Positions 5,979 to 62,800 of a DNA stretch of 64,000 nucleotides are shown here, piece by piece; positions within the stretch are counted from its first letter, which is position 1; each line of letters begins with the position of its first letter. Under the pieces are notes generated by a model. The model saw only the letters and a list, made by a program, of their open reading frames with translations, made no database searches and was not told the DNA's origin. Location of the stretch: positions 159,127 to 223,126 of the forward strand of contig CAWFIK010000003.1 in NCBI GenBank assembly GCA_963815865.1. The letters run 5' to 3'. Made by a program: the position numbers and the translations under genes. The stretch is from an uncultured Acidobacteriota bacterium (lineage in GTDB: Bacteria; Acidobacteriota; Thermoanaerobaculia; UBA5066; Gp7-AA6).

Positions 5979-7127
5979 TCAGCGCGCGATGAAGATATTT
6001 ACGGTGTGGTCCTCGGCGCTGGCTGTGACCGCGTCGGCCCGGCCGTTTCGATCGAAGTCGGCTAACAGGAAGCGCCAGCTCCTTCCTGCTCCCGAAACCG
6101 TCACGGTGCGAGAGGGGGAGAGGCCGCCGGGGCCGCCAAACGCGACAGTCAGGTCGCCGCTTCCTGCGTTGACGAGGACCGCGTCGGCGATCCCGTCGCC
6201 GTCCACGTCGGCCGCTTCCACGTTACCGGGTGCGTGCCCGGACACGATTCCCGGACCGAGGCGAAAGTTTCCGCGGCCGTCTCCGAGGAGAAAGGTCAGC
6301 GCGTCGCCACTCCGGTCCGAAATCTGACCGGAGTAGTTTCCGACAACGATGTCCGGTTTTCCGTCGCCGTTGATGTCGGCCACGGCCACGGTGAAAGGGG
6401 AGGGGCCGGCGGCGATCGGCGGGCGCTCCGAGCCGCGGAATCTTCCGCGGCCGTCGCCGAAGAGGACCGTGACTCCGCGCTCAACCATGTTGGGAACGAC
6501 GATGTCGGGCTTTTCGTCACCGTCGAGATCGGCCACGCGGAGATTCCGGTAGGGCTTTCGCCCCGCCTCGATCGGAACGCCGGGGAGCGCGAAGCCGCCC
6601 TTTCCGTCGCCGGCGAGGAGCGTCAGCCTGTTCTCCCCCCAGCTGTCGATGACGAGGTCGAGAAGGCCGTCGCCGTTGACATCGGCCGCGCCGATCGTGT
6701 GCGGATGGGGACGGCTCCTCACGGAGAACGGAGATCCGGGAGCCGGCCGGAACCCCCCGTTCCCGTCTCCGAGCAGGAGCGTCACGCTCGGAACTCCGTG
6801 GTTCGCGATCGCCAGGTCGAGACGTCCGTCCCGATTGAAGTCGGCGGCCGCGATCTCCGTCGGAGACGGTCCCGCCGGAAAAGACCCGCCCCGCCGGAAT
6901 CCGCCGCGCCCATCCCCGAGAAAGACGACCGCATCGTTGGCGCCATCGCTCGCCACGACCAGGTCGAGCTTCCCGTCGCGGTTGAAGTCGCCGGCCGCGA
7001 GCGCTTCCGGTTTGCGGCTCTCTCCCATGGGAATGACCCGCGGCTCCCGGAAGGGGCTCGACCGGTTGGGCCCCGAGGCGGCCGCGCCCAGGAGCAGCAG
7101 CCCGAGCCCTCGCGCGATTCTTCTCAT
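5979..7127 (-). CDS. FG-GAP/VCBS repeat protein (7-bladed propeller-like), secreted
   Basis: Signal peptide followed by seven repeats of the D-x-N/D-x-D-G-x-x-D-hhh type (DFNRDGKLDLVV, DFNRDGRLDLAI, DVNGDGLLDLVI, DLDGDEKPDIVV, DINGDGKPDIVV, DVDGDGIADAVL, DFDRNGRADAVT). Confidence 0.85.
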   Translation of the reverse strand: MRRIARGLGLLLLGAAASGPNRSSPFREPRVIPMGESRKPEALAAGDFNRDGKLDLVVASDGANDAVVFLGDGRGGFRRGGSFPAGPSPTEIAAADFNRDGRLDLAIANHGVPSVTLLLGDGNGGFRPAPGSPFSVRSRPHPHTIGAADVNGDGLLDLVIDSWGENRLTLLAGDGKGGFALPGVPIEAGRKPYRNLRVADLDGDEKPDIVVPNMVERGVTVLFGDGRGRFRGSERPPIAAGPSPFTVAVADINGDGKPDIVVGNYSGQISDRSGDALTFLLGDGRGNFRLGPGIVSGHAPGNVEAADVDGDGIADAVLVNAGSGDLTVAFGGPGGLSPSRTVTVSGAGRSWRFLLADFDRNGRADAVTASAEDHTVNIFIAR

Positions 7128-7189: not shown

Positions 7190-8521
7190 ATGACTATTTT
7201 CTCACTCAGACCCGCGGTGCTCGCGCTGGCCGCAGCCTCGGCGTTCCTGGGCGCGCGCTCAGCGGAGCCGCCTCCGGCCGTCCCGTTCATCGCGGACGAC
7301 TACCCGGGAGCGCTGGCGCAGGCCCGAGCGAAGAAGCTGCCGATCTTCGTCGAGGCCTGGGCGCCCTGGTGACACACGTGCCGATCGATGAGGGCCTATG
7401 TCTTCACGGACAAGGCGCTCGCGCGGCACGCCGGACAGTTCGTCTGGCTCTCGATTGACACGGAAAAGCGGGGCAACGCTTCGTTCCTGACGAAATTCCC
7501 CGTCGAGGCGTGGCCTTCCTTCTACATTCTCGACTCGAGCAGCGAGAAGGTCGCGCTGCGATGGGTCGGCGGCGCGTCGGTCGGACAGATCCTGAAGATC
7601 CTGGACGACGGCCGCCAGTCCGTACGGGGGCGCGAGAAGGGAGTCGAGGAGATCCTCGCCCGCGCCGACCGTTCCTACGGCGAGGGGAAGAACGCCGACG
7701 CGGTCCGGGATTATCGCGAGGCCCTGTCCAGGGCGCCAAAGGAGTGGCCGCGCTACGGCCGCGCGGTCGAGTCGCTCCTCTTCGCGCTCCAGCGGGTCAA
7801 GGACCAGAAAGGGTGCGCCGACACGGCCCGCGAAGCGTTCGCGAGACTGCGCAGCACCTCCTCGGCCGCCAACGTCGCGGCGACCGGGCTCGACTGCGCG
7901 CTCGCCCTGAAGCCCGACGACCCCTCGCGCGCGGAGCTCGTCAGGGCGTTCGTGGGCCATTGCCGGGAAGTCCTCGCGGAACGACGGCCGGACATCGCGG
8001 CGGACGACATCTCCTCCGTCTACGAAACTCTCGCGTCCGAGCGGGAGGAGGCGAAGGATGTGGAGGGGATGCGGAAGGTGCTTACGGAGCGCGCCGCCTT
8101 TCTCGAAGGGGAAGCGGCGCACGCGAAGACCCCCGAGGCGCGGGCGGTCTTCGACTCGCACCGGCTCGGGACGTACATCGCGCTCGGGGAGCCCGAGCGC
8201 GCCATCCCGATGCTCGAAGCCTCCGAGCGGGATCTTCCCGACGACTACAACCCGCCGGCGCGCCTGGCCGCCGCGTACAAGGCCATGAAGAAATACGACG
8301 ACGCCCTGGCCGCCTCCGACCGCGCGCTGTCGAAGGCGTACGGCCCCCGGAAGGTCGGCATCCTCCAGTCGCGCGCCGACATCTACGCCGCGAAGGGCGA
8401 CTCCGCCAACGCCCGCAAGACCATGGAGGAGACTCTCCGCTACGCCGAAGACCTCCCGCCGGGCCAGCGCTCGGATAAGACGATCGCGTCGCTCAAGAAA
8501 AAGCTCGAAGCAATGCCGTAG
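7190..8521 (+). CDS. periplasmic thioredoxin-fold protein with C-terminal TPR domain; in-frame TGA at 7370-7372 (candidate selenocysteine, U-x-x-C)
   Basis: ORFs 7190-7372 and 7388-8521 share one frame. Read-through gives PIFVEAWAPW-[TGA]-HTCRSM, the W-C-x-x-C redox motif with TGA at the first Cys. The upstream part has a signal peptide; the downstream part has no independent start context. Confidence 0.65.
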
Positions 8522-8541
8522 CGCGCGGTTCGCTCACCGTT

Positions 8542-8620
8542 GTCATTCTGAGGAGCGAAGCGACGAAGAATCTGCTCCACATCAGGAGCGAGCAGATCCT
8601 TCGCTGCGCTCAGGATGACA
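8542..8620. repeat. R1 palindromic repeat, complete copy
   Basis: gtcattctgaggagcgaagcgacgaagaatctgctcc ... gagcagatccttcgctgcgctcaggatgac. The arms are reverse complements of each other. Confidence 0.9.
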
Positions 8621-8642: not shown

Positions 8643-9032
8643 TCAATTTCTCGGCTCGTCCTCACCGTGGTTGAGGGTCGCGAGCCAGCGCTCGAACGCT
8701 TCCTTGTCTTCCCCTTTCAGGCGGCGCAACACTCCCTCGGAGTGGGACGACGGCACCTTCGGATCGTCGAAGGGAAGCCGCCCGTACATCTTTCCGCCCG
8801 GCTCGTGGCAGGGAGCGCAGTGCGCCCTGAGCACCGGGCGGACGATGCTGACGAAGAGATCGGGGGCCTCGGTCGGAGCGGGCGGGGGCAACGGGGAGGG
8901 AACCGCCGTCGGCGCCGCGGGGACGGCAGTCGGCACGGGCGGAGTGGCCCTGGACCGCGACTCGGCGCAGTCCCGCGTCTGGAAGAGCGCCGCCAGCGGC
9001 AGGGCCAGGAGGGCGATCGGGAGCCGCGTCAT
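8643..9032 (-). CDS. small secreted c-type haem-binding protein (CxxCH)
   Basis: Signal peptide MTRLPIALLALPLAALF, a Pro/Thr/Ala-rich linker, then VLRAHCAPCHEPGGK carrying a CxxCH motif. Confidence 0.7.
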   Translation of the reverse strand: MTRLPIALLALPLAALFQTRDCAESRSRATPPVPTAVPAAPTAVPSPLPPPAPTEAPDLFVSIVRPVLRAHCAPCHEPGGKMYGRLPFDDPKVPSSHSEGVLRRLKGEDKEAFERWLATLNHGEDEPRN

Positions 9033-9118: not shown

Positions 9119-9293
9119 CTACTTGACTCCGAGCAGCTCGACTTCGAACAGGAGCGTCGCGTTTGGCGGAATGACCCCTCCGGCCCCGCGCGCGCCGTAG
9201 CCGAGCGACGGAGGAATGAGCAGGTTGCGCTTCCCGCCGACCTTCATCGTCGCGACCCCTTCGTCCCACCCCTTGATGACGATCTCCGATCCA
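9119..9293 (-). pseudogene. displaced 3' fragment of an FKBP-type peptidyl-prolyl isomerase gene
   Basis: Translates to [57 protein letters not shown], with no N-terminal half. Homologous to the 3' end of the full copy at 11708-12177, including the downstream ggggcggcgaaccgcccc hairpin. Confidence 0.8.
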
Positions 9294-9680
9294 TATGCTT
9301 GGTATCATTCAGGCTGCGTCTAGACACAACGGAGGATCTGCCGATGGCACCGTCGTCAGCCTGTCGTTCTGCTTCTCTCTCTGTCTTTCACGTCTTCGCC
9401 TTCGCGAAGGCAGCCGCTAGGCGGGCGCTGAGAAAGAGGCGGAAGCGGAACAGATTAACCGGATCAACGAAGGCATGAAAGGCACGCAAGCGCTAGACAG
9501 CACCTGTCATCGGAAAATTCACGGCTTGCTGGATCAACTGGAAGCGCGGCTCAACCGCGAAGTGCGTGACCTAGGTGCAACTTCTGTCGGAAAAGCAGGA
9601 TGAGCTCAGCGAGCTCATCCGTAGCGGGTCATGGTCCTCGAGACGAGCGTACATATCCTGGGCACGATCGAGCGTCCTTC

Positions 9681-10649
9681 ATGCTGAAGCTCGCGGGCGC
9701 GACGCCGGGCGAGTCTCGATGGACGAACATCCGACTTGCCATCCGCGAAGCTTCGAACGCGCTCAATGCGCACTGCGCACGCTTCAAGGGACCGGGGGAA
9801 GACTACTGCCAGGGAGACGGCGCCACGCGCCTTGCCGGTGAGCACGAGAATGCCTGGGCGGCGTGTTTCAACGGGAACAACTGGGTGGAGAACTCATCGA
9901 GGCGCCGCGCTTACGAGGCTTGCATGAGCGCCACCGACCCGTTTACGAAGTTGTGCGACCGGGACCGCAAGGCTTCGATGACCAGTTGTCCCTATTTCAC
10001 GGTGAGCTCCGGCGATGTCCACGAGCTCCAGTTCTACCACGATCGCTGGAGCACCGATCCGGACCACCTGCCGGCCACGGCCGTGGTTGTTTCCGGTCAG
10101 CCGGCTACGTCACCTGCTCGAGCCGGTGATCGTGCCGACGATGCCGAGGGCGGACTCCGGATTCACGCTCACCGTGCGCGGGCGCTTGGACAATGCGCTC
10201 GATGGCGAGTACAGCGCGGCCTCAACCCGTCGACAACGAGAATCTCCGCGATCGCCCCGGAAGTTACCGAAGGTTTGAAAGGGCGGGTTGAGCTGATCCC
10301 GGCTGGCACGGAAGTCTCCGTTTTCGTAAGGCTCGTCCCGCTTAACGGGTCAACGGCGAACGGTGGTCATCTCGATCTGCAGATCATCACCGAGAAGATC
10401 GGAAAAGCCAGGGATGGCCGGCTCGATTCGCAAAACGTTTACCGGCGCATCGCCTGGCCGGCCGCCGGTGCCGTGCTGCTGCCGGCCAATTCGACTCTGA
10501 GCTTCGCCACGCAGTGTGGCTGTCCCTACTCCATGTCAGTCGCGGAGTTCCGGAAACGCGCCGCTACCCGCGCGGCGTCCCGTCGGCGAGCGCCGCGACG
10601 AGCATCACGCGGGCGATCCTGGCGGGCAGCCGCATGCAGACCATTCTGA
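9681..10649 (+). pseudogene. degenerate ORF(s) in the lower-G+C insert (Cys-rich N-terminal part; later segments continue in other frames)
   Basis: Protein-like stretches occur in three + frames: CARFKGPGEDYC...SCPYFTVSSGDVHELQFY; ELIPAGTEVSVFVRLVPLNG; ILMEPINVTDIQSGKRFHARL; LKRGTDVYLKVTDTSSSQYGGHTARLEVDYAVVNGQQVPLKT. These suggest one frame-disrupted gene. Product unknown. Confidence 0.3.
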
Positions 10650-10888
10650 TGGAGCCGATCAACGTTACGGACATCCAGTCCGGAAAGCGATTTCACGCGC
10701 GATTGAATGTGATATGCAGCCACCAAGAGGCGCAAAGGACCGCGTTGACGCCTCGAGCTGAAGCGCGGCACGGATGTCTATCTGAAGGTCACGGATACGA
10801 GTAGCAGCCAATACGGCGGGCATACGGCCCGGCTCGAGGTTGACTATGCCGTCGTGAACGGCCAGCAGGTTCCCCTGAAAACGGCCGC

Positions 10889-11317
10889 GTGGCCGCTGCA
10901 GTTTGGCCCTCCAGTTGTCAATATCCAGCGTCGCGTGCCACGGTGGACGTCGTCCAGCCGGAAGGCCAGACCACTTGGTGGGACATCACCGAGCAAGTCG
11001 AGGTTTCAGCTGCCGGCATGAGTCCTGAGCAGCTGAAGCGGCTCGTGCCTCCCCCTGATCGAAACGAGCAGATGAGGTCTGGGGACAAGGCCTTGCACAG
11101 GGCCATCGCCGACTACAACCCCACCTGGATCAACTTCGGCATGATCGCGAACGGCACCGTCTCGCGCGTCGAGCAGAAGGGCGACTGGGAGATCCTCCAC
11201 TTTCAGGAGTCAGCCGACGACGGCTTTCTGGTCTGCTTTCCCGCGTCCGGCAGGCTCAGTTTCCGCGGTGATGGCAATGTGGTCGGCGGATTGGCGGTGA
11301 TGACTTTTCCGGACTGA
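10889..11317 (+). CDS. hypothetical protein (insert-borne)
   Basis: 142-codon ORF with non-repetitive composition (TWWDITEQVEVSAAGMSPEQLKRL...GDWEILHFQESADDGFLVCF). May be the continuation of the preceding disrupted gene. Confidence 0.3.
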   Translation: MAAAVWPSSCQYPASRATVDVVQPEGQTTWWDITEQVEVSAAGMSPEQLKRLVPPPDRNEQMRSGDKALHRAIADYNPTWINFGMIANGTVSRVEQKGDWEILHFQESADDGFLVCFPASGRLSFRGDGNVVGGLAVMTFPD

Positions 11318-11707
11318 TAGGAAAAACGGTCGAGATACGCGGAAAGGTCAGCCAGCTCAGGTGCTCCCCGAAAGCGGTCGGCATGGAGATCACCATACCG
11401 GCGCAGATCCAGATTCTTGAAGCGACTGGCCCTGCGCTCAAACCGCTCGACTCGGCTAAATAAGGAGCGCGCGAAAGGGTGTCAAGAGTCGGTAGTGTCC
11501 TAGTTTCAAACTCGGACACTGGCGCGGGAACCGCTCTCGGCTAAGTTCCGACGCAGTTCCGGGTCTGAGCAATCGCCGCGAGGGAAGCTGTCAGGGCAGC
11601 GGTCAGCAGTCGAGTCATGGATTCTCTAACGGCCTAGCACAGCCGGGCTTGCACGTTTCGGGTTTCAGGTGGAGGAGGGGCGGCGAACCGCCCCGGCCAC
11701 CGGACCT

Positions 11708-16295: not shown

Positions 16296-16334
16296 GCCCT
16301 GGCACCTTTCGTCTCGCGGCAGAATACCTTGCCT

Positions 16335-16470
16335 GTCATTCCGAGGAGCGAAGCGAAGAGGGATCTGCTCCGTAACTCTGGAAACACCGGAGCAGATCCT
16401 TCGCTTCGCTCAGGATGACAGGGGGAGGGACGCTCAGGATGACAGGGGGAGGGGACGCTCGGGATGAGAG
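16335..16470. repeat. R1 palindromic repeat plus a short tandem reiteration of its right end
   Basis: Complete hairpin at 16335-16420, followed by gggggagggacgctcaggatgaca / gggggaggggacgctcgggatgag, which are partial direct repeats. Confidence 0.85.
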
Positions 16471-26861: not shown

Positions 26862-27837
26862 ACCACGTTCGTCTCGGCACGACCGGGCTGAAGGTCTCGC
26901 GGATTTGCCTCGGGATGATGACTTACGGCACGCCGAAGTGGCGGCCGTGGGTCCTCGACGAGGAAGCGAGCCGGCCGTTCGTCCGGCGCGCCCTCGAGCT
27001 CGGCATCAACTTCTTCGACACGGCCGACATGTACTCCGACGGCGCGAGCGAGGAGGTCCTCGGCCGCGCGATCCGGGACTTCGCCCGCCGGCAAGACGTC
27101 GTCATCGCCACGAAGGTCTTCAACCCGATGGGGCCGGGCGTGAACGACCGGGGCAACTTCGCGCAAGCACATCCTCGACTCGATCGACGCTTCCTTGAAG
27201 CGCCTCGGCATGGACTACGTCGACCTCTACCAGATCCATCGCTACGATCGCGAGACGCCGATCGAGGAGACGCTCGAGGCCCTGAACGACGTCGTCCGCT
27301 CCGGCAAGGCGCGCTACATCGGAGCGTCCAGCATGTTCGCCTGGCAGTTCGCGCAGGCGCTCGCGCTCTCCGACCGGCGCGGCTTCGCGCGCTTCGTCTC
27401 GATGCAGGACCACTACAACCTCGCCTACCGCGAGGAGGAGCGGGAAATGCTTCCGCTCTGCCGCGCGGAGGGGATCGGCGTCCTTCCGTGGAGCCCGCTC
27501 GCGCGCGGGCTGCTCGCCGGGACTCGCCGCGCCGGACTCGAAGGAGACACGGCCCGCTCGAAGAGCGACGAGTACGCGCACACGCTCTACGAGGACTCCG
27601 ACTTCGAGGTCGCCGACCGTGTCGTCGAGACGGCCCGCCGCCGCGGCGTCCCGCCGGCGCGCGTCGCGCTCGCCTGGCTCCTCTCCCGCCCCGGCGTCAC
27701 CGCGCCGATCGTCGGCGCGAGCCGCCTCGAGCACCTGGACGACGCCGTGGCCTCCCTGGACCTCTCCCTCTCCGCCGGAGGAGTGCCGCTTCCTCGAGGA
27801 GCCCTACCGTCCCCACACGATCCGCGGCCACTCCTAA
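26858..27837 (+). CDS. aldo/keto reductase; two frameshifts as sequenced (near 27155 and 27772)
   Basis: MNHVRLGTTGLKVSRICLGMMTYG...INFFDTADMYSDGASEEVLG...NDRG / SRKHILDSIDASLKRLGMDYVDLYQIHRYD...ASLDLSLSA / EECRFLEEPYRPHTIRGHS*. Canonical AKR motifs are present in order but spread across three frames. Confidence 0.85.
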
Positions 27838-27910
27838 GACGTCGCCGGCGGCATCCCGGCGGTCTATTGGATGCGTGCTGCGGAGGTGTCAAGGTATCCT
27901 CCGCCGCCCT

Positions 27911-27941
27911 GTCATCCTGAGCGAAGCGAAGGATCTGCTCC
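27911..27941. repeat. R1 repeat, single arm
   Basis: gtcatcctgagcgaagcgaaggatctgctcc, with no matching right arm nearby. Confidence 0.7.
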
Positions 27942-28007
27942 CGTCGCTCTGTTCGGGAACCTCTTCTTCGGCAATGCGTATCAGTTGACAGCAAAGGGGA
28001 GGTCTCC

Positions 28008-40692: not shown

Positions 40693-41073
40693 ATGACAAG
40701 GCGAACCGCTCTCCTCGCCGCGACTCTCGCCGCGCTCACTCTGTCCGCGTCGTTTCCGCCGTCTGCCGCTGCGTCGCCGGACAAGTCCGCTCCCCAGCTC
40801 GAGGTGACTTACTACTACCTCCCCACCTGACCCATCTGCGCGAGCGTCAAGCCCGCCGTGAGCGGGTTGGAACAGGATTTCCCCGGCAAGGTCAAAGCGC
40901 AGAATCTCGACGCGACGACTCCCGAGAACAAGAAGATCGTCAAGGAGCTCGGCTTCGGCTCCCACGGCCTCGTCATCCGCTCCTCCGATGGCAAGACCCT
41001 CTGGAAGCAGCCCGATCACGACGTGAACATGAAGGACGTCCGCAGCGCGATCAAAGACCTCCTGAAGAAGTGA
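40693..41073 (+). CDS. small periplasmic thioredoxin/glutaredoxin-fold protein; in-frame TGA at 40828-40830 (candidate selenocysteine, U-P-I-C)
   Basis: aaggagga SD followed by ATG and a signal peptide. LEVTYYYLPT-[TGA]-PICASVKPAV is in frame with ORF 40858-41073 (...HGLVIRSSDGKTLWKQPDHD...). A hairpin at 40850-40868 lies about 20 nt downstream. Confidence 0.6.
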
Positions 41074-41581
41074 GGGGTGTGAGCTCTCAAACGCTGTTCC
41101 CACTCGAGGTTCTCGTCGTAGAGAATCCGCCCGGAGTCGCCGGCGTTGCCCTCTGCGGCACGCGGCGGCCGGGCCGCACGGAGAACCTCCTGGCCGCCGC
41201 TCCGGTCCGAGGGCACAGAGGCAGCTTCGCTAGGCCAGGTTCCCGGTGTGTGCCCTCGGACAGGGCCGCTGCCGGGCAACGTCGTCGCCTCCGGGCTGCA
41301 TAGTGTCTGTTCGAGCCGAGCTTTAGCCCCGGCGGCGGGACGCCTCCCGGAGGCGGCCGTAAGTGAAGGCGCGCCAGCCGGGATCCTCTGTTGCCTCGCT
41401 GCGACTGCGCCTTCGCGCTAGAGCGACGGCCGGTTCTCCAGAAACGGCCTGCCGGAGCGTGCCGCCGTAGGGAGGCAGCCCGACGCCGGGGCGGGTTGTC
41501 AGCGGAGGTCCCGGATACGCTGAGAGCCGCATTGGCGAGCAGCCCAAGGGTCGCCCCGACAGTACGGGGGAACGACGGGAC

Positions 41582-42583
<1,002 letters not shown>

Positions 42584-42587
<4 letters not shown>

Positions 42588-43831: not shown

Positions 43832-43915
43832 CATTCTGAGGAGCGAAGCGACGAAGAATCTGCTCCGGCCGGACGAGGGAAACGGGGCAGGTCCTTCGCT
43901 TCGCTCAGGATGACA
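43832..43915. repeat. R1 palindromic repeat
   Basis: cattctgaggagcgaagcgacgaagaatctgctcc ... gtccttcgcttcgctcaggatgaca. Confidence 0.9.
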
Positions 43916-43987
43916 GAAGGAAAGCGCGACTTTCGACGAGGGGCGGACGAGAGATAGAGTTGCGCCCTGCGCAAGAGGAGGTCAGAA

Positions 43988-45800: not shown

Positions 45801-46284
45801 GGAAAAACGCCCGTAAATCCGACGGGTTTTGTCATTTGATTTTGCGGCCCGGTGATTCTCCAACCCTTCCCGGCGCTTGTCAAATCCCGTCCTCGCTCGG
45901 TCGTTGTACCTCGCGAGTTATCCGCCCCGGCGTCGGGCCCGCCTCCCTTCGTCGGCACGCGACGGCCCTGCGGCGATTAGAGCACCGGGCCGTCGCTTGT
46001 CGTTCGGTCGCATTCGCAGCGAGGCGATTCTTGATCTGTGGTGTGCTCCCTCTCTCACGCCTCCTCCGGGAGGCGTCCCGCCGCCGGGGCTTCATCGTGG
46101 TTAAGGCGAGCTCTGAGTCCCGGAGGCGGCGGCGTTTCCCGTAGTCGGTGATGGGTGACGAGCACGGAAGAGCGCGACCGGCACCGCGGTGCGACTGCGA
46201 GGAACCCTCAGCGCCGGCCGGTTCTCTCCATCACGGCAGGCCGGCGCGTGCCGACGGAGGGGAACGACGCCGGCTTCGGGGCGG

Positions 46285-57883: not shown

Positions 57884-57949
57884 CTGAGCGAAGAGAAGAA
57901 TCTGCTCCCGGCGCAGATCCGTCGTCGCTTCGCTCCTCGGGGGATGACA
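57884..57949. repeat. R1 palindromic repeat (degenerate)
   Basis: ctgagcgaagagaagaatctgctcc ... gcagatccgtcgtcgcttcgctcctcgggggatgaca. Confidence 0.8.
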
Positions 57950-58181
57950 GGCCAGGGATTTGAACGGCGAGTGTCGGGATCCTGCCACTCATGGTATTAA
58001 CGCTCCACAATGTTCCGGTTGCCGGCGGAATCTCCGGTCGTCGGTTCGTCCCGCGGCCTTCTGACGCGGATCGTGTGCCCGGGCAGTGCCGCGGTCTGAT
58101 CCCCCTGTGAGAGCGACGAGGTGAAAGCATCGAGGTGAATTTCACAATGCGCCACCTGGTCGGCCGGAAGGGAGGATTGCC

Positions 58182-58505
58182 GTGACGCCCAAGGTAAAAC
58201 CCGGCGACAAGATCACGACGACCGTCAAGCTGTCGAAAGACTCGGACGTCAATTTCGCCGTCTTCCACGAATTCGAAAAGATCCTGAGCCCGAGTCCCGG
58301 CGTCTTCGAGTACACGGACGAATACGAGGTCCAGGCGACGGACAACCTCATCCTCTACACGTGGACGTTCCTGTTCGGGACCGATGACGGCGAGTACACG
58401 ATCGAGCTCGCCGTCAACGGCGATGACAAGTGCGGCGGCGCGGCGAAGGCCGCCGATGGCCGCGGGCCGTATCAGGGAAAGTGCTTCTTCGAGAAGAAGT
58501 CATGA
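58182..58505 (+). CDS. small beta-rich hypothetical protein, first gene of a three-gene operon
   Basis: ggagga SD followed by GTG. 107 aa, no signal peptide. The stop overlaps the next ATG (ATGA at 58502-58505). Confidence 0.6.
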   Translation: MTPKVKPGDKITTTVKLSKDSDVNFAVFHEFEKILSPSPGVFEYTDEYEVQATDNLILYTWTFLFGTDDGEYTIELAVNGDDKCGGAAKAADGRGPYQGKCFFEKKS

Positions 58506-59809
58506 CCGGGCGGCCGCGGGGCACGCCGCCCTGGTGGATTGTCCTTTCCCTGCTGCTCCTGCTGCCCGCCGGGGCATCGTCGCAGCCGGCTCCGAAGGAT
58601 TTCAGCGCTCGCCTCGATGAGGCGATCCAGGGCGTCGCGAAACGCTATTCGATTCCGCTCCCGCTTCAGGACAACGTCACTCTCGAGACGCTCCGGGCCC
58701 GCGCCGCCGCGATCGACACGGGGCGCGACGGCCGCCAGTTCACGGCGTCCTCGCTCGCGACGCCGCTTGCCACCGTCATCGATCAGCCCACGACGACCAA
58801 CTTCCTCTCGCTCGCGCTCGAGACGGGGGCCTTCTCGAAGACCGAGGACAACAACGCGTTGACCGTGACGACGACGTTATACGCGGTCAAACGCCTCTTC
58901 AACCCGACGCCGTGGCGCTCCCTGGAGGAGTACGGCGCCGACCGCAACCTGCGTTACTTCACCGGCTCGATGACGTTCGCCAAGGCGACGACGAACACGG
59001 CGAGCTCCTCCAGCCGCGTCCAGGCGTGGACGGTGCGATACCAGATCGGGAGCCGGGACCTACGCGACTTCTACACCGATCCGTCGGTCGAAACGCTCGG
59101 GTTCGCCTACGCGTTCATCCTGAAGGAGATCACGACTCTTCTGGCCCAGAAATTCCCCGGTAAGTCGGTGGACGACTATACGGTCGCGCAGATCGAGGAT
59201 GTCATCCTGAACTCCACCTTCATTCCCGACGGCGACGCGGCGAAGCGCCTTTCCCTGGTCTCCGGATCGTCCGTCACGGTCAAGGACCTGCTCGTCGTCC
59301 GCGGCGGGCTCGTGCAGCAGCTCATCGCGAAGAACGCACCGAAGGGCGTCGGCTCCGTCAGCTTCGGCGAGTCGCGGGACGACACCACGAACACGGACAT
59401 CTACCGATTCGCCGGAAGCTACCAGCGCAAGTTGAACGACGCGTTGCTGCTGACCGGGAATCTGTCGGGCGAATACCGCCAGCCCCGGGTGTCCTCGGCG
59501 AAGACGGCCTACGGCGGCACGGCCGCGGTGGAGCTCGCCGACTCGCTCAAGAACTTCAAGCTCGTGGACAGCGGCGACCCGTCGCGCCTCTCGATCGCGG
59601 TGAGCGCGCGCGCCGCCCAGCGGGCCAGGCCGGAGTTCATGGCCCAGGCGAAGCTGGAGTTCCTCCTTCCCAGGGGGGTCTCGATCCCGGTCTCCGTCAC
59701 CTGGGCGAATCGGACAGATCTGGTCTCCGAGAGGATCATCCGCGGCCACGTCGGGCTCTCCTTCGACGCGGCAAGTCTGCTGACGATCGGTGGAGTCGCG
59801 GCCCGGTGA
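58502..59809 (+). CDS. secreted hypothetical protein (possibly beta-barrel / outer-membrane associated)
   Basis: Signal peptide PPWWIVLSLLLLLPAGASS. 435 aa, rich in alternating beta-type segments. No family recognised. Confidence 0.65.
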   Translation: MTGRPRGTPPWWIVLSLLLLLPAGASSQPAPKDFSARLDEAIQGVAKRYSIPLPLQDNVTLETLRARAAAIDTGRDGRQFTASSLATPLATVIDQPTTTNFLSLALETGAFSKTEDNNALTVTTTLYAVKRLFNPTPWRSLEEYGADRNLRYFTGSMTFAKATTNTASSSSRVQAWTVRYQIGSRDLRDFYTDPSVETLGFAYAFILKEITTLLAQKFPGKSVDDYTVAQIEDVILNSTFIPDGDAAKRLSLVSGSSVTVKDLLVVRGGLVQQLIAKNAPKGVGSVSFGESRDDTTNTDIYRFAGSYQRKLNDALLLTGNLSGEYRQPRVSSAKTAYGGTAAVELADSLKNFKLVDSGDPSRLSIAVSARAAQRARPEFMAQAKLEFLLPRGVSIPVSVTWANRTDLVSERIIRGHVGLSFDAASLLTIGGVAAR

Positions 59810-59830: not shown

Positions 59831-62800
59831 ATGTTTGACTCGGGCTCGCTCCGCAAGCTCAAGATGCCGGCGCTCGTCGCGCTGGCGCTTCTCATCGCGG
59901 TCTCGGGTTACTACCTCCTCCTCGCGGTCCGGCGAAGCACTTACCTGACCGCCAGCAATATCCGGCTCCTGACGACGATCGGCCACCAGTTCGACGACTG
60001 GGTGCGGCGCCAGGAGCAGATCTTCCGGCTCGTGATCGACTCCAAAGACCCCACCGCGATGACGAAGGAGTGGAAGTCGTCCGCGACGTGGAAGTTCGGG
60101 AAACGTCCGCTGCCGGAGGACTCGCCGCTGGAGGTCGAGCCGCCCACGCTCCTCATGGACGCGAGCGGCCGGCTGTCGCTGGAGCTCGATTCCCGGCAGG
60201 GCGACCAGCGAATCGATCAGCGGATCGTCCCGTTCGACGCGCCGATCTTCGAATCGCTGCAGAGGGACATTTTCGACATCGTCCTTCTGGCGGCGCCCGA
60301 CGGGCGGATCCTGAAGCAATCCGGCCAGGCGGATCTGTACCTGTCGGACCTCGGCTCGCTCGTCGCGCCGGGCGATTCGGCCCTCAAGGCGGGCCAGACC
60401 GCGGACGTCAAGGACCTCGCCGGGAGAGATTACAGGCTGTTTCTGCAGCCGTGTTGCGGGCGGCTCCGCGTCCGCACGAGCGACGCGAGCCAGCCGGCCG
60501 GTGGGAAGACGGACGCGATTTCGGCGGCCGAGAACAAGCCGCCCGCGGCGCTGGAGAAGGGCAAGGCCGCGAAGGCCGGTTCGAAAGAGAGCGGGGGAGC
60601 CGCCGGCTCGGCATCGTCCATCGCGGGCGCGGTTCGCTCGGGACTCGTCGTGTGCGGCCTCGTTCAGACCGGGACACTCACCGGGCGGCGCTTCGCCGTC
60701 TCCTTCACCACGATGCTGATCCTCGCCGGCATCCTGCTCATCATCGTCGTGAGCTGGCCGTTCATGAAGGTCGCCCTGATCGGCAACCGCCAGCGAGTCC
60801 GCCTGCTCGACGTCCTGCTCCTGGGGATCTCGAGTCTGCTCGTCCTCTCGATCGGCACGCTTTACCTGCTCGACTTCTACGCCTACCAGAGGCTCAAGAC
60901 TCACATCGACCTGGGGCTTCAGAGTTTTTCCGGAGCGATCCAGTCCAACATGAGAAAGGAGGTCGCGGCCGCGTACAGCCAGGCTCGGACGCTGCAATCG
61001 GCGGCCCTCTCGCGGCTCTTCCCGCAGGGCCGGCCGGGCGGGTCCGAGGGCCGGTTCCTTTCCGATCTCCTCCAGAGCCATCCCGACCCCGACCTCTCCT
61101 ACTACCCGTTCTTCGAGGCGTTCTCGCTGATCGATTCCAACGGGGCGCAGGTCGCCAAGTGGAGCGTGCGCGAGCGCTCGCAGTCCGCCCCGCTGATCTC
61201 GGTGAAGGACCGCGACTACTTTCTCCGCGTCAAAGAGAAACGCACCTGGTCGCTGGCGCCGGCGTGCGGCCGGCGTCTCGCCGACGGACGCTGCGGCCTG
61301 TGGCTCCCCGGGATCGATCGATTCGCGCTGGAGTCGATCCGTTCCATCACGAGAATGAACACGCAGGCGGTCCTGGCGATCCCGACCGATCGGGAGGACG
61401 TTCCGGTCGCCGCGCTCTCCTTTCCGATGATTTCCGTCATCAAGCCGGTCGTCGCTCCCGGCTTCGGATTCGCGGTGATCGAGGACGGAGAGAACGGGCG
61501 GGTCGTGTTTCACGACGACGACCGCCGGAATTTGATCGAGCAGTTCTTCCTCGAGACGGACATGGACAAGCGCCTGCGCTCCGTCGTGGCCGCCCGGCGC
61601 GCGGAGCTCATGAATCTCCGTTACTGGGGGGAGGACTATCGCGCGTACGTGGCGCCTCTCAAAGGTCTCCCATGGTCGCTCGTGACCTACTACCAGAAGG
61701 ACGTCGTTCGGAGCGTGAACGTCGATTCGATCGTGACGACTCTCCTCTTCCTGATTCCCTATATGACGGCGTGCATGGGCATCTGCTTCTTCATCCTCAT
61801 CTGGCCCCAGAGGCGCGCGACCTGGCTCTGGCCACATCCGCGCGGACTGAACGCCTATCTCGAGCTCGCGGTGTTCTACATAGTCGTCATTGGAGTGTTC
61901 GGCGCGGCGATCTATGTCTCCGGGCGGGAATTCGGCGGCCACGTCGTGCCCGACGGGCTCCTGATCCTGATCGCGTTCGCGATTCCGGCGCTGGCGTGGG
62001 TGGCGACGTACCTGCGGCTCCGAGCGGTGCGGCGGGCCTCCCCGATCCCCGGCGACGAGATCACCAATCCCAACCCGGAAGCCGAGGAGAAGGCGTGGCC
62101 GGAGCCGAACCAGCTCCTGTCGCTGTCGTACATGGGCGCGGCGGCGCTCCTGCTCGTCATCTCGGGCGCCATGCCGACCGCGGCGCTGTTCAAGCTCGCC
62201 CACTCCATCCAGATCGTGCCGTTCATCAAGTACAACCAGGTGAGGCTCGTGGCGGCGCTCGGGGAGCGCCAGCAGCGCGCGGAGAAGGAGCTCGATTCCT
62301 TCTCGTCCCGGAGTAAGTCGGTCGATCTGTCGTCGCCGGGAGAACCGCCGTCCACGCTCTCCTCGCGGCGGACCGGGATCGGCGGCGTGCAGCTCGCCTT
62401 CGACGACGGAAAGGGGAACAAGCGCCCGGTCGCGCCGGTGGACATCTACAACCAGCCGTTCGGCACGACCATCGCCAGGGTACCGGACGCTTCCGCGGGC
62501 GGACCTGGTCCCGCGCCGGGGGGACGCCGCCGGATGTCCCCACCGACCGAGTCGCTGCCGGGATTCCTGGAGCCGTATCTTCCTTATTACTCGGACTTCT
62601 CGGTCGAACGGCGAGAGCTGCTGCACGACGAATCGGCCGACGGGAGCCGCACCTGGAAGCGCGCTCCGGGCAACCGCGTCGTCCTGACGAGCGAGGGCTC
62701 CGGCAACGGCGCGCTCGAGGTCAGCTCCATCGTGCCGACGTTCGGCGGGCTGCCGGCCTTCCTCAAGGAGAGGAGCCTGGGATTGATCCTCATCTCCGGC

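What the first reader, a model, noticed from the sequence alone, without database searches (positions are those of the whole stretch)
7190..8521. Candidate selenoprotein 1: TGA sits exactly at the first Cys of a W-C-x-x-C thioredoxin motif
ORFs 7190-7372 and 7388-8521 are in the same frame, separated only by TGA 7370-7372 and five sense codons. Read-through yields signal peptide ...KLPIFVEAWAPW-[UGA]-HTCRSMRAYVFTDKALARHAGQFVWLSIDTEK...WPSFYIL. This is the beta1-CxxC-alpha1 core of Thioredoxin_7/DUF255-like proteins (WCHWC), followed by a TPR domain. Neither half is a plausible protein alone. Possible stem-loops follow the TGA (7377-7383 pairs with 7424-7430; inner hairpin 7389-7406). A second independent U-x-x-C case occurs at 40828.
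Basis: partly seen in the sequence, partly recalled or inferred. Interest (0 to 1): 0.7.

Follow-up and report, generated by a model that had tools for sequence, protein, structure and literature searches.

The report
Uncatalogued secreted thioredoxin–TPR selenoprotein gene
The apparent stop codon at 7370 almost certainly encodes selenocysteine at the active site of an exported thioredoxin-plus-TPR redox protein, a family that is common in soil Acidobacteriota and is routinely cut in half by automatic gene annotation.

Summary
ORFs 7190-7372 and 7388-8521 form one reading frame, interrupted only by TGA 7370-7372. This TGA sits at the first Cys position of a W-C-H-T-C thioredoxin motif.

- **Site conservation.** In 86 loci, mostly one per species (Thermoanaerobaculia and other Acidobacteriota, plus Eisenbacteria and Krumholzibacteriia MAGs), the codon is TGA 74 times and TGC/TGT 12 times. 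It is never anything else. The flanks EAWAPW-[U/C]-HTCRSM are nearly invariant.
- **RNA signal.** Synonymous variation is halved in the 22 codons after the TGA. Unusual codons (AGG, CGG, GCC, GGA) are fixed only in TGA forms. These forms fold into a 69-nt hairpin (7366-7434) that decays in Cys forms.
- **Second case.** TGA 40828 is conserved in 21 of 21 relatives and has a textbook bacterial SECIS.
- **Not shown.** selA, selB, selC and selD are not in the window, and the rest of the genome could not be reached. The apical loop of the site-1 hairpin lacks the consensus G. RNAalifold prefers a weaker inner hairpin.
- **Novelty.** No curated selenoprotein model fits, and the two review tables I read do not list this architecture.

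Verdict: a genuine selenoprotein gene, and a new member of the well-known class of Trx-fold UxxC selenoproteins. Confidence is about 0.9 and interest is moderate.

The parts
7190..8521 (+). Complete coding sequence of the Trx-TPR selenoprotein: 443 codons including UGA-Sec at codon 61, with TAG stop at 8519-8521.
   Evidence: Single frame. tblastn matches span query residues about 1-443 across the TGA in 80 genomes. Full-length Cys homologues of 437-471 aa align end to end.
7190..7264 (+). Predicted N-terminal signal peptide (about residues 1-25, MTIFSLRPAVLALAAASAFLGARSA).
   Evidence: Inferred from the sequence: a basic residue, then a hydrophobic Ala/Leu stretch, then small residues. The matching residues 1-25 of the modelled Cys homologue have pLDDT below 50. 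No signal-peptide predictor was available.
7280..7624 (+). Thioredoxin-fold domain (about residues 31-145). The Pfam Thioredoxin_7 match covers residues 36-98.
   Evidence: Pfam Thioredoxin_7 1.5e-9 and Thioredoxin 1.9e-6. PDB 2KUC 'putative disulphide-isomerase' at 8.7e-11, with WCGPC aligned to W[U]HTC. The AF2 model of the Cys homologue shows a beta-alpha-beta thioredoxin fold at residues 32-145.
7370..7372 (+). UGA read as selenocysteine (residue 61).
   Evidence: TGA in 74 loci, TGC/TGT in 12, nothing else. It aligns with the nearly invariant Cys of AWAPW-C-HTC.
7370..7381 (+). Redox motif U-H-T-C.
   Evidence: H, T and C are invariant in alignment A1 and in all 86 loci.
7366..7434 (+). 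Long SECIS-like hairpin that encloses the UGA in a 7-nt internal loop (UGACACA). This is the best candidate for the bSECIS.
   Evidence: MFE -35.3 kcal/mol in the window. All TGA forms inspected adopt the same architecture. Mean MFE is -34.2 for TGA forms against -25.6 for Cys forms, p=3e-7. Pairs are kept in 86.5% of cells, against 34-51% for slid controls and 60.6% in Cys forms.
7377..7384 (+). 5' arm of the middle helix (CGUGCCGA; CGUGCCGC in most orthologues).
Evidence: Pairs with 7423-7430. About 90% of cells are paired, with G-C to C-G and U-A to U-G exchanges.
7423..7430 (+). 3' arm of the middle helix (GCGGCACG).
   Evidence: Arg codon CGG in 51 of 55 Arg at +18. The next codons are GCC (60/61 Ala codons; 60/62 sequences) and GGA/GGG (62/62, never GGC). 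These choices occur only in TGA forms.
7389..7421 (+). Upper part of the long hairpin, ending in GUCU-UCAC-GGAC.
   Evidence: Energy of this sub-structure averages -14.9 kcal/mol in TGA forms and -2.2 in Cys forms. Pair probabilities in the window are 0.83-1.0, except one pair (33-57) at 0.0.
7385..7410 (+). Alternative small hairpin, the RNAalifold consensus.
   Evidence: RNAalifold consensus at -5.09 kcal/mol with almost no covariation. Its 5-bp core alone (pairs 29-33/42-46, 8-nt loop GCC...) puts a G at the first loop position and lies 21 nt from the UGA, so in that 5-bp form it would fit the published bSECIS rules better. It has zero ensemble probability in single sequences.
7637..8509 (+). 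TPR-like all-alpha superhelix (about residues 150-440).
   Evidence: Pfam TPR_19, TPR_12, TPR_8 and others. The AF2 model shows helices from 150 to 439 at pLDDT around 90. Foldseek hits are to TPR superhelices such as consensus-TPR proteins (8chy), LGN and OGT.
40693..41073 (+). Second candidate selenoprotein gene: 126 aa, signal peptide, small thioredoxin-like protein with U-P-I-C.
   Evidence: Single frame. Weak Thioredoxin hit at 17.7 bits. Nearly all database relatives are truncated to 71 aa after the TGA.
40828..40830 (+). UGA of the second candidate (codon 46).
   Evidence: TGA in 21 of 21 metagenomic relatives at 52-86% identity. The only full-length database protein has Ser there.
40850..40868 (+). 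Canonical bSECIS hairpin of the second gene: AGCCCGC-CGUGA-GCGGGUU.
   Evidence: Stem and loop are essentially invariant in 21 relatives. The 5-nt loop has G-U at positions 2-3, and 26 nt separate the UGA from the loop. The rules come from PMC13188914, Fig. 2 legend.

Best explanation
Window 7190-8521 is one gene for an exported thiol-disulfide oxidoreductase of about 443 aa. Its layout is a signal peptide, a Thioredoxin_7-type domain with active site U61-H-T-C64, and a TPR superhelix of about 290 aa. Codon 61 is UGA and is decoded as selenocysteine.

Mechanism (inferred from the established bacterial Sec pathway): an RNA hairpin formed by the 60-odd nucleotides after the UGA recruits SelB-GTP-Sec-tRNASec, so the ribosome inserts Sec instead of terminating. 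After export, Sec61 is the attacking nucleophile of a selenenylsulfide/selenol-thiol redox couple with Cys64. The TPR domain probably holds the client protein or peptide.

- **Shown here:** frame continuity, the Sec/Cys pairing, conservation of the TGA, RNA-level constraint specific to TGA forms, and the domain architecture.
- **Inferred:** SelB dependence, export, direction of the redox reaction, and the client.
For: 1. The frame is continuous, and the Thioredoxin_7 domain spans the TGA.
2. Twelve full-length homologues (58-64% identity) all have Cys at the aligned position.
3. In 86 loci, mostly one per species, the codon is TGA 74 times and TGC/TGT 12 times, and never TAA, TAG or another sense codon. 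The flanks are nearly invariant.
4. An NJ tree with parsimony needs at least 5 Sec/Cys switches, so the TGA is not one inherited lesion.
5. The 30 codons upstream of the TGA show normal synonymous variation (0.51), so they are translated. Codons +1 to +22 show 0.295, against 0.50-0.61 elsewhere. None of 177 same-size windows is as low.
6. Codon choices are specific to TGA forms: AGG at +7 (42 of 51 Arg codons; AGG is 9% of Arg codons in window genes), CGG at +18, GCC at +20 (60/61 Ala codons; 60/62 sequences), and GGA/GGG at +21, never GGC (GGC is 58% of Gly codons).
7. TGA forms fold into one long hairpin. Mean MFE is -34.2 against -25.6 kcal/mol in Cys forms, p=3e-7. Pairs are kept in 86.5% against 60.6% of cells, and slid controls give 34-51%.
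8. TGA ends roughly half of the other genes in the window at their natural C-termini, so UGA is not reassigned genome-wide.
9. A second UxxC gene in the window has a canonical bSECIS and a conserved TGA. Its relatives lie on contigs of the same lengths as those carrying the site-1 orthologues.
10. A related MAG has a PrdB/GrdB-family gene with TGA at its UxxC motif, next to the orthologue.
Against: - No selA, selB, selD or tRNA-Sec lies in the 64-kb window. The rest of the genome could not be read.
- The stability of the site-1 hairpin is not exceptional against null models for this GC-rich sequence. The z-score is -1.78 against dinucleotide shuffles (11 of 200 as good) and -0.88 against synonymous recoding (93 of 500).
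- RNAalifold does not recover the long hairpin. It gives a weak (-5.1 kcal/mol), nearly invariant inner hairpin instead.
- Covariation is modest: 20 doubly changed cells in 5 pairs.
- There is no protein-level or selenium-labelling evidence.
Confidence: 0.9

Rival explanations
1. The UGA is read through or recoded without selenocysteine. Possible routes are near-cognate insertion of Trp or Cys, or a lineage-specific suppressor tRNA. In that case the downstream RNA structure stimulates read-through rather than recruiting SelB.
For: The Sec machinery was not observed. The site-1 hairpin does not meet the loop rule of the bSECIS consensus.
Against: The codon alternates only with Cys codons at the catalytic position of a CxxC motif, which is the classic Sec/Cys signature. 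The second gene in the same window has a textbook SelB-type hairpin. A related MAG has a TGA in a PrdB/GrdB-family gene at the known Sec position. UGA is a normal stop elsewhere in the window.
Confidence: 0.05
2. The TGA is a true stop. In this reading there are two products, a 60-aa secreted peptide and a 377-aa cytoplasmic TPR protein starting at ATG 7388, as the databases annotate.
For: Gene callers output the 377-aa ORF in hundreds of assemblies, and a 60-aa ORF in some.
Against: The stop would cut a thioredoxin fold between beta1 and its catalytic helix. ATG 7388 is the conserved Met of the CRSM motif, and the 15 nt before it show no Shine-Dalgarno sequence. A true stop would drift among TAA, TAG and TGA, but only TGA and Cys codons occur. 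Cys forms are single 437-471-aa proteins.
Confidence: 0.03
3. Sequencing or assembly error (TGC or TGT misread as TGA), or a recent pseudogene.
For: The window shows other signs of possible assembly or gene damage: a GAPDH gene with an out-of-frame tail, and a truncated FKBP copy.
Against: The same TGA is present in 74 independently assembled genomes and metagenome contigs from several projects. Both halves are under purifying selection.
Confidence: 0.01

Closest known systems
Thioredoxin-fold UxxC bacterial selenoproteins: Sec-thioredoxin PF00085, thiol:disulfide interchange protein PF13098, and thiol-disulfide isomerase-like cd02966 (as tabulated in PMC13188914 and PMC9312934)
   Same: Sec replaces the N-terminal, attacking Cys of the CxxC motif at the start of helix alpha1 of a thioredoxin fold. 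Cys-containing homologues exist. The bSECIS lies in the coding sequence just after the UGA.
   Different: This protein has a signal peptide and an added TPR superhelix of about 290 aa. Its best Pfam match is Thioredoxin_7, and PF13098 is below cutoff (24.1 against 27). No curated NCBIfam selenoprotein model reaches its cutoff. TGA forms outnumber Cys forms among the closest relatives.
Trx7/PDZ domain-containing (seleno)protein, NCBIfam NF041199
   Same: It is the only listed selenoprotein family built on a Thioredoxin_7 domain fused to a protein-binding module.
   Different: The score is 17.2 bits against a cutoff of 300. The motif is CxxU there and UxxC here. The partner domain is PDZ there and TPR here.
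CnoX/YbbN-type thioredoxin-TPR 'chaperedoxins' (COG3118, 'thioredoxin-like negative regulator of GroEL')
   Same: Both have an N-terminal thioredoxin domain followed by TPR repeats. JGI gives this name to a few family members. This supports the idea of a redox domain joined to a client-binding TPR domain.
   Different: From my own knowledge, CnoX is cytoplasmic and has no Sec. No CnoX/YbbN chain appeared among the PDB sequence hits at E<=0.01 or in the top 50 fold hits. The protein here has a signal peptide.
PDB 2KUC, 'putative disulphide-isomerase' (Thioredoxin_7-type single domain)
   Same: It is the closest solved structure by sequence: 8.7e-11 over residues 31-143, with WCGPC aligned to W[U]HTC.
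   Different: It is a single domain, has Cys rather than Sec, and has no TPR.
E. coli fdhF-type bacterial SECIS, and the bSECISearch consensus
   Same: Both are hairpins that begin at or next to the UGA inside the coding region. The 31-nt distance from UGA to apical loop lies within the 16-37 nt range, and the MFE is far below -7.5 kcal/mol.
   Different: [quoted passage not shown] A weak alternative hairpin, taken as its 5-bp core with an 8-nt loop, would satisfy the loop rule.

Membership tests
Bacterial selenoprotein gene (UGA-Sec recoding) | In-frame UGA inside a continuous, conserved coding frame | tested here: met
   Relatives match on both sides of the TGA in the same frame. The upstream codons show a coding-type substitution pattern.
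Bacterial selenoprotein gene (UGA-Sec recoding) | UGA aligns with a conserved, redox-active Cys in homologues (Sec/Cys pair) | tested here: met
   Twelve of 12 full-length homologues have Cys. At the DNA level there are 11 TGC and 1 TGT.
Bacterial selenoprotein gene (UGA-Sec recoding) | UGA, and no other stop codon, conserved among orthologues | tested here: met
   TGA in 74 of 86 loci, with no TAA or TAG. At least 5 Sec/Cys switches on the tree.
Bacterial selenoprotein gene (UGA-Sec recoding) | bSECIS hairpin just downstream of the UGA. [quoted passage not shown] | tested here: inconclusive
   The long hairpin meets the spacing rule (31 nt), the stem rule and the energy rule. It also shows constraint specific to TGA forms. 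Its loop lacks the G. The alternative hairpin 7389-7406 meets the loop rule but is only -2.7 kcal/mol. bSECISearch itself was not available.
Bacterial selenoprotein gene (UGA-Sec recoding) | selA, selB, selD and tRNA-Sec present in the same genome | not testable with these tools
   None is in the window. The source contig of 687,547 bp is not retrievable. Indirect support comes from a second SECIS-bearing gene in the window and a PrdB/GrdB-type TGA gene in a related MAG.
Bacterial selenoprotein gene (UGA-Sec recoding) | Selenium incorporated into the protein | not testable with these tools
   This needs 75Se labelling or mass spectrometry.
Thioredoxin_7 (PF13899) / thioredoxin-fold thiol-disulfide oxidoreductase | Profile match above the curated cutoff | tested here: met
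   38.3 bits against a cutoff of 27, on residues 36-98. PF00085 also passes, at 28.3 against 23.5.
Thioredoxin_7 (PF13899) / thioredoxin-fold thiol-disulfide oxidoreductase | CxxC-type motif at the N-terminus of helix alpha1 after strand beta1, plus a conserved Pro before beta3 | tested here: met
   In the AF2 model of the Cys homologue the strand is 51-56, the CHTC motif is 60-63 and the helix is 61-70. W108-P109 (EAWPSF) is invariant in alignment A1.
Trx7/PDZ (seleno)protein NF041199 | Equivalog score >= 300 bits, CxxU motif, PDZ domain | tested here: not met
   17.2 bits. The motif is UxxC, and there is no PDZ hit.
CnoX/YbbN chaperedoxin | Significant sequence or fold match to YbbN-type Trx-TPR proteins, and cytoplasmic location | tested here: not met
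   No such chain appears in the PDB sequence search at E<=0.01 or in the top 50 fold hits. The N-terminus looks like a signal peptide (inference from sequence).
[quoted passage not shown] | Score above the curated cutoff | tested here: not met
   30.9 bits against 805, and 30.0 against 330. Only the C-terminal thioredoxin-like domain of those models is matched.

The most novel reading that the evidence does not exclude
This is the type example of an uncatalogued, exported Thioredoxin_7-TPR selenoprotein family in which Sec forms predominate. Its SECIS would be atypical: a 69-nt hairpin that holds the UGA in an internal loop and has no consensus G in its apical loop, even though the same genome also uses a textbook SECIS at 40850-40868. 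That would mean SelB in Thermoanaerobaculia accepts two quite different RNA signals. It would also mean that current SECIS-based and model-based pipelines systematically miss an abundant soil selenoprotein.
Probability: 0.3. Interest if true: 0.6.

Novelty: new member of a known kind. Interest (0 to 1): 0.5.

Why it matters
- **Annotation.** Hundreds of database entries for this family are truncated 377-aa 'TPR repeat proteins' (3182 hits, and most of the top 120 are truncated). They have lost both the signal peptide and the catalytic domain. NCBI names on three truncated members read 'tetratricopeptide repeat protein' or 'thiol reductase thioredoxin', so the Sec codon is not recognised there.
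- **Selenium use in soil.** Recognising the gene adds a selenoprotein family to Thermoanaerobaculia and other soil Acidobacteriota, which none of the four selenoproteome papers I searched for the term mentions; one tool paper lists a single Acidobacteriota test genome. No paper in the library mentions Thermoanaerobaculia together with selenocysteine.
- **SECIS models.** The pair of genes in one window, one with a canonical SECIS and one with a non-canonical candidate, is a convenient test case for bacterial SECIS models.
- **Biochemistry.** It is a natural Sec/Cys series of at least 5 independent switches in an extracytoplasmic oxidoreductase. That makes it useful for asking what Sec contributes in an exported thioredoxin.

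Tried and rejected
- **Rfam.** At gathering thresholds the whole window gives nothing. At E<=1 around both genes there are only chance-level hits. In this copy no Rfam family matched either candidate bacterial SECIS.
- **tRNAs.** ARAGORN finds none in the window. In 107 related loci it finds only one dubious 92-nt 'tRNA-Glu' inside a coding region.
- **Sec machinery.** Pfam on about 40 window ORFs shows no SelA, SelB or SelD. The source contig is not on record.
- **Energy tests.** MFE z-scores are only weakly significant, so I did not rely on energy alone.
- **RNAalifold.** It does not return the long hairpin. I kept both models.
- **Alternative hairpin B.** The small hairpin 7387-7391/7398-7402 with loop GGGCCU averages -1.5 kcal/mol (+2.9 in the window). 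It is equally conserved in Cys forms, so I rejected it as the main element.
- **Fold search.** The AF2 model returns only generic TPR superhelices and no Trx-TPR precedent.
- **Literature.** No paper mentions selenoprotein together with tetratricopeptide, or Thermoanaerobaculia together with selenocysteine. The BSepDB supplements are not held.
- **Other candidates in the window.** A scan for further in-frame TGA sites with coding signal on both sides and a nearby Cys found only 7370 and 40828. The hit at 41018 is the antisense strand of the second gene. TGA 59807 and TGA 26177 are ordinary stops between same-frame neighbours.
Full report
**1. The observation**

- ATG 7190 opens a 60-codon ORF that ends in TGA 7370-7372.
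- The same frame continues through H-T-C-R-S to ATG 7388, and then for 377 more codons to TAG 8519-8521.
- Read-through gives a 443-aa protein: MTIFSLRPAVLALAAASAFLGARSAEPPP...LPIFVEAWAPW-[UGA]-HTCRSMRAYVFTDK...

With Cys substituted for the stop, Pfam gives these results:
- Thioredoxin_7 covers residues 36-98 at 38.3 bits (cutoff 27), so the domain spans the TGA.
- Thioredoxin (PF00085) also passes its cutoff.
- Thioredox_DsbH/DUF255 falls just below its cutoff.
- Several TPR families cover residues about 157-420.

The window is about 67% G+C and shows strong GC3 coding signal on both sides of the TGA.

**2. Comparative evidence at the codon**

*Protein search.* A search of the 5.8-billion-protein collection shows a clear pattern.
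- The closest relatives (67-86% identity) are almost all 376-385 aa. They were called from the Met after the stop.
- Relatives at 58-66% identity are full-length, at 437-471 aa, and carry thioredoxin Pfam domains.
- Aligning 12 of the full-length proteins puts an invariant Cys (AWAPW-C-HTCRSM) exactly on the TGA.

*DNA check.* I read the DNA of orthologues on large MAG contigs, and of 80 loci from a one-genome-per-species collection. Across 86 loci the codon is TGA 74 times, TGC 11 times and TGT once. It is never TAA, TAG or any other sense codon. The flanking peptide is nearly invariant even at 52% overall identity.

*Host range.* The hosts are Thermoanaerobaculia and other Acidobacteriota MAGs, one Holophagales MAG, and several Candidatus Eisenbacteria and Krumholzibacteriia MAGs.

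*Tree.* On a neighbour-joining tree of the proteins, parsimony needs at least five Sec/Cys switches, with the TGA state at the root.

*What this excludes.* These results rule out a base-calling error, a recent pseudogene and an ordinary stop. UGA is not reassigned genome-wide either: roughly half of the confidently coding ORFs in the window end in TGA, and at least one ends at a complete Pfam domain boundary.

**3. RNA-level evidence**

*The long hairpin.* Folding 7360-7440 gives a 69-nt hairpin (7366-7434, -35.3 kcal/mol) built as follows.
- A short lower stem, CUGG/CCGG, brackets the UGA.
- A 7-nt internal loop (UGACACA) holds the UGA.
- The middle helix is CGUGCCG/CGGCACG.
- Upper stems end in GUCU-UCAC-GGAC.

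*TGA forms compared with Cys forms.*

| Measure | TGA forms | Cys forms |
|---|---|---|
| Mean MFE (kcal/mol) | -34.2 | -25.6 (Mann-Whitney p=3e-7) |
| Cells forming a standard pair on the named structure | 86.5% (62 distinct sequences) | 60.6% |
| Energy of the apex (kcal/mol) | -14.9 | -2.2 |
| Energy of the outer helices (kcal/mol) | -10.5 | +2.5 |

All TGA-form orthologues inspected fold into the same architecture. When the 3' partners are slid by 1-3 columns, only 34-51% of cells pair. Twenty cells carry changes on both sides, a count that no shuffle out of 500 reached.

*Synonymous variation.* This is the strongest test, and it does not depend on any folding model. I measured normalised codon entropy at amino-acid-conserved positions.
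- It is 0.295 in codons +1 to +22.
- It is 0.50-0.61 everywhere else in the gene, including the 30 codons upstream of the TGA.
- None of 177 contiguous windows of the same size is as low.

*Codon choices.* The constraint reaches the 3' arm of the long hairpin.
- Arg +18 is CGG in 51 of 55 TGA forms that have Arg there. That Arg is absent from all 12 Cys forms.
- Ala +20 is GCC in 60/61 Ala codons (60/62 sequences), against GCG in 8 of 12 Cys forms.
- Gly +21 is GGA or GGG in 62 of 62, never GGC. GGC is 58% of Gly codons in window genes and the commonest choice in Cys forms.
- Arg +7 is the rare codon AGG in 42 of 51.

*Caveats.*
- Stability alone is not remarkable for such GC-rich RNA. The z-score is -1.78 against dinucleotide shuffles and -0.88 against synonymous recoding.
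- RNAalifold does not return the long hairpin.
- The apical loop of the long hairpin has no G in its first two positions, which the published bSECIS model requires (PMC13188914, Fig. 2 legend).
- The alternative hairpin, in its 5-bp form with an 8-nt loop, would satisfy that loop rule, but it is only -2.7 kcal/mol and has zero ensemble probability.

I conclude that an RNA element specific to the TGA forms occupies 7366-7434. Its exact SelB-binding fold is not settled.

**4. Does the organism decode Sec?**

The window has no tRNA gene, no Rfam hit and no SelA, SelB or SelD. The 687,547-bp source contig could not be retrieved. The machinery is therefore untested. Three indirect observations support it.

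- *A second gene in the window.* The gene at 40693-41073 encodes a signal peptide and a small thioredoxin-like protein, with ...YYYLPT-[UGA]-PICASVKPAVSG.
  - All 21 metagenomic relatives (52-86% identity) have TGA.
  - The hairpin AGCCCGC-CGUGA-GCGGGUU (40850-40868) is essentially invariant. It has a 7-bp stem, a 5-nt loop with G-U at positions 2-3, and 26 nt between the UGA and the loop, which makes it a textbook bSECIS.
  - Its database relatives are likewise truncated to 71 aa.
  - They lie on contigs of the same lengths as those carrying the site-1 orthologues (4,462,701; 2,270,150; 226,358; 137,712; 484,952 bp).
- *A known selenoprotein family in a related MAG.* Next to the orthologue, a PrdB/GrdB-family gene (TIGR04483, 7.5e-40) is split by a TGA at LLVPV-[UGA]-PMCHQ. 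This is the UxxC Sec site of that known family.
- *Sec use elsewhere in the phylum.* An Acidobacteriota genome is among the Sec-utilising test genomes of the deep-Sep paper (PMC12013277).

**5. What the protein is**

- *Fold.* An AlphaFold2 model of the 62%-identical Cys homologue P0082 is confident (pLDDT 90.3, pTM 0.85). Residues 1-25 are disordered. A thioredoxin fold covers 32-145, with the CHTC motif between strand 51-56 and helix 61-70. An all-alpha superhelix runs from 150 to 439.
- *Structural relatives.* Foldseek against the PDB returns only generic TPR superhelices. The closest solved thioredoxin domain by sequence is 2KUC, a 'putative disulphide-isomerase', at 8.7e-11 with WCGPC aligned to W[U]HTC.
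- *Localisation.* The N-terminus looks like a Sec-type signal peptide. This is inferred from the sequence, because no predictor was available.
- *Gene context.* The gene is divergent from an FG-GAP repeat gene (5979-7127, minus strand) and convergent with a small ORF (8643-9032, minus strand), so it is probably monocistronic. Consensus scans found no convincing promoter or terminator.

**6. Mechanism proposed**

- *Shown:* one frame, the Sec/Cys pairing at the attacking position of a CxxC motif, RNA constraint immediately 3' of the UGA, and the Trx-plus-TPR architecture.
- *Inferred:* SelB-GTP-Sec-tRNASec binds the hairpin and delivers Sec at codon 61. The pre-protein is exported. Sec61 and Cys64 cycle between selenol/thiol and selenenylsulfide states, oxidising, reducing or isomerising disulfides in clients held by the TPR domain. 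The direction of the reaction and the clients are unknown.

**7. Comparison with what is known**

Thioredoxin-fold UxxC selenoproteins are the commonest kind of prokaryotic selenoprotein (PMC13188914). I did not find this family in the tables of two reviews.
- The only listed Thioredoxin_7-based family is Trx7/PDZ (NF041199), which has a CxxU motif. The protein here scores 17 bits against its cutoff of 300.
- No other curated NCBIfam selenoprotein model comes near its cutoff.
- NCBI names on three truncated members (377, 377 and 376 aa) are 'tetratricopeptide repeat protein' or 'thiol reductase thioredoxin', so current pipelines do not recognise the Sec codon.
- The Trx-plus-TPR layout resembles the CnoX/YbbN chaperedoxins, and JGI gives that name to a few members. 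There is no significant sequence or fold match to them, and the predicted location differs.

**8. Verdict**

This is a real selenoprotein gene with probability about 0.9. It is a new member of a well-known kind and is widespread in soil Acidobacteriota. Among its closest relatives, Sec forms outnumber Cys forms by about 6 to 1. Its SECIS candidate departs from the consensus model. Interest is moderate at 0.5: the finding is solid and useful for annotation and for SECIS modelling, but it is not conceptually surprising.

Noticed in passing
window 40693-41073 (TGA 40828-40830; hairpin 40850-40868): Second selenoprotein candidate: a 126-aa exported thioredoxin-like protein with U-P-I-C. TGA is present in 21 of 21 relatives, and the canonical bSECIS AGCCCGC-CGUGA-GCGGGUU is invariant. 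The only full-length database protein (P0121, on a 792-bp contig) has Ser (LPPSPIC) at the site, not Cys. No Cys homologue was seen among the 120 hits listed.
   Followed up: partly
window 9290-11670: This is an insertion of about 2.4 kb at lower GC (about 63%), relative to the syntenic locus L001. About 200 bp, including the 3' end of the FKBP gene, is present on both sides. The copy at 9119-9298 (minus strand) is only the C-terminal ~58 residues of an FKBP. ORF 9600-10649 inside the insertion has no Pfam hit. It may be a mobile element or a rearrangement.
   Followed up: partly
window 8541-8620; also 675-730, 16332-16421, 27909-27948, 43832-43917, 57908-57951; L001 2661-2759: A repeated intergenic element of about 80-90 bp that contains inverted repeats (14-nt arms at 8564-8577 and 8590-8603). 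It resembles REP or MITE elements. One copy lies directly 3' of the Trx-TPR gene. Rfam gives no hit.
   Followed up: partly
window 41076-41514 (partial reverse copy 45922-46141); L001 4216-4654: A non-coding stretch of about 440 bp, 3' of the second selenoprotein gene, is 85% identical to the stretch 3' of the Trx-TPR gene in the related MAG locus L001. It therefore follows a different selenoprotein gene in each genome. There is no significant Rfam hit and no convincing ORF. Its function is unknown.
   Followed up: partly
window 41499-42587 (-): The first of two tandem GAPDH-like genes matches Gp_dh_C only up to position 143 of 158. It then runs into an Arg/Pro-rich tail of about 70 aa that looks out of frame. 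This could be a frameshift or an assembly indel.
   Followed up: no
window 27195-27920 (+): The aldo/keto reductase ORF matches only profile positions 96-280 of 291, so the N-terminal third is missing from this frame. This could be a frameshift, a wrong start or a truncated gene.
   Followed up: no
L002 4907-5656 (-): In a related MAG, a PrdB/GrdB-family gene (TIGR04483, 7.5e-40) next to the Trx-TPR orthologue is split into 160-aa and 87-aa calls by an in-frame TGA at LLVPV-U-PMCHQ. This is the known UxxC Sec site of that family. It is below the equivalog cutoffs, so it may be a distinct subfamily.
   Followed up: partly
window 58430-59809 and 59831-64000 (+): Two large ORFs (459 aa and more than 1389 aa, the second with a weak dCache hit) lie in the same frame. 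They are separated by TGA 59807-59809 and 7 codons. There is no Cys near the TGA and no homology argument for read-through, so I treated them as adjacent genes.
   Followed up: no
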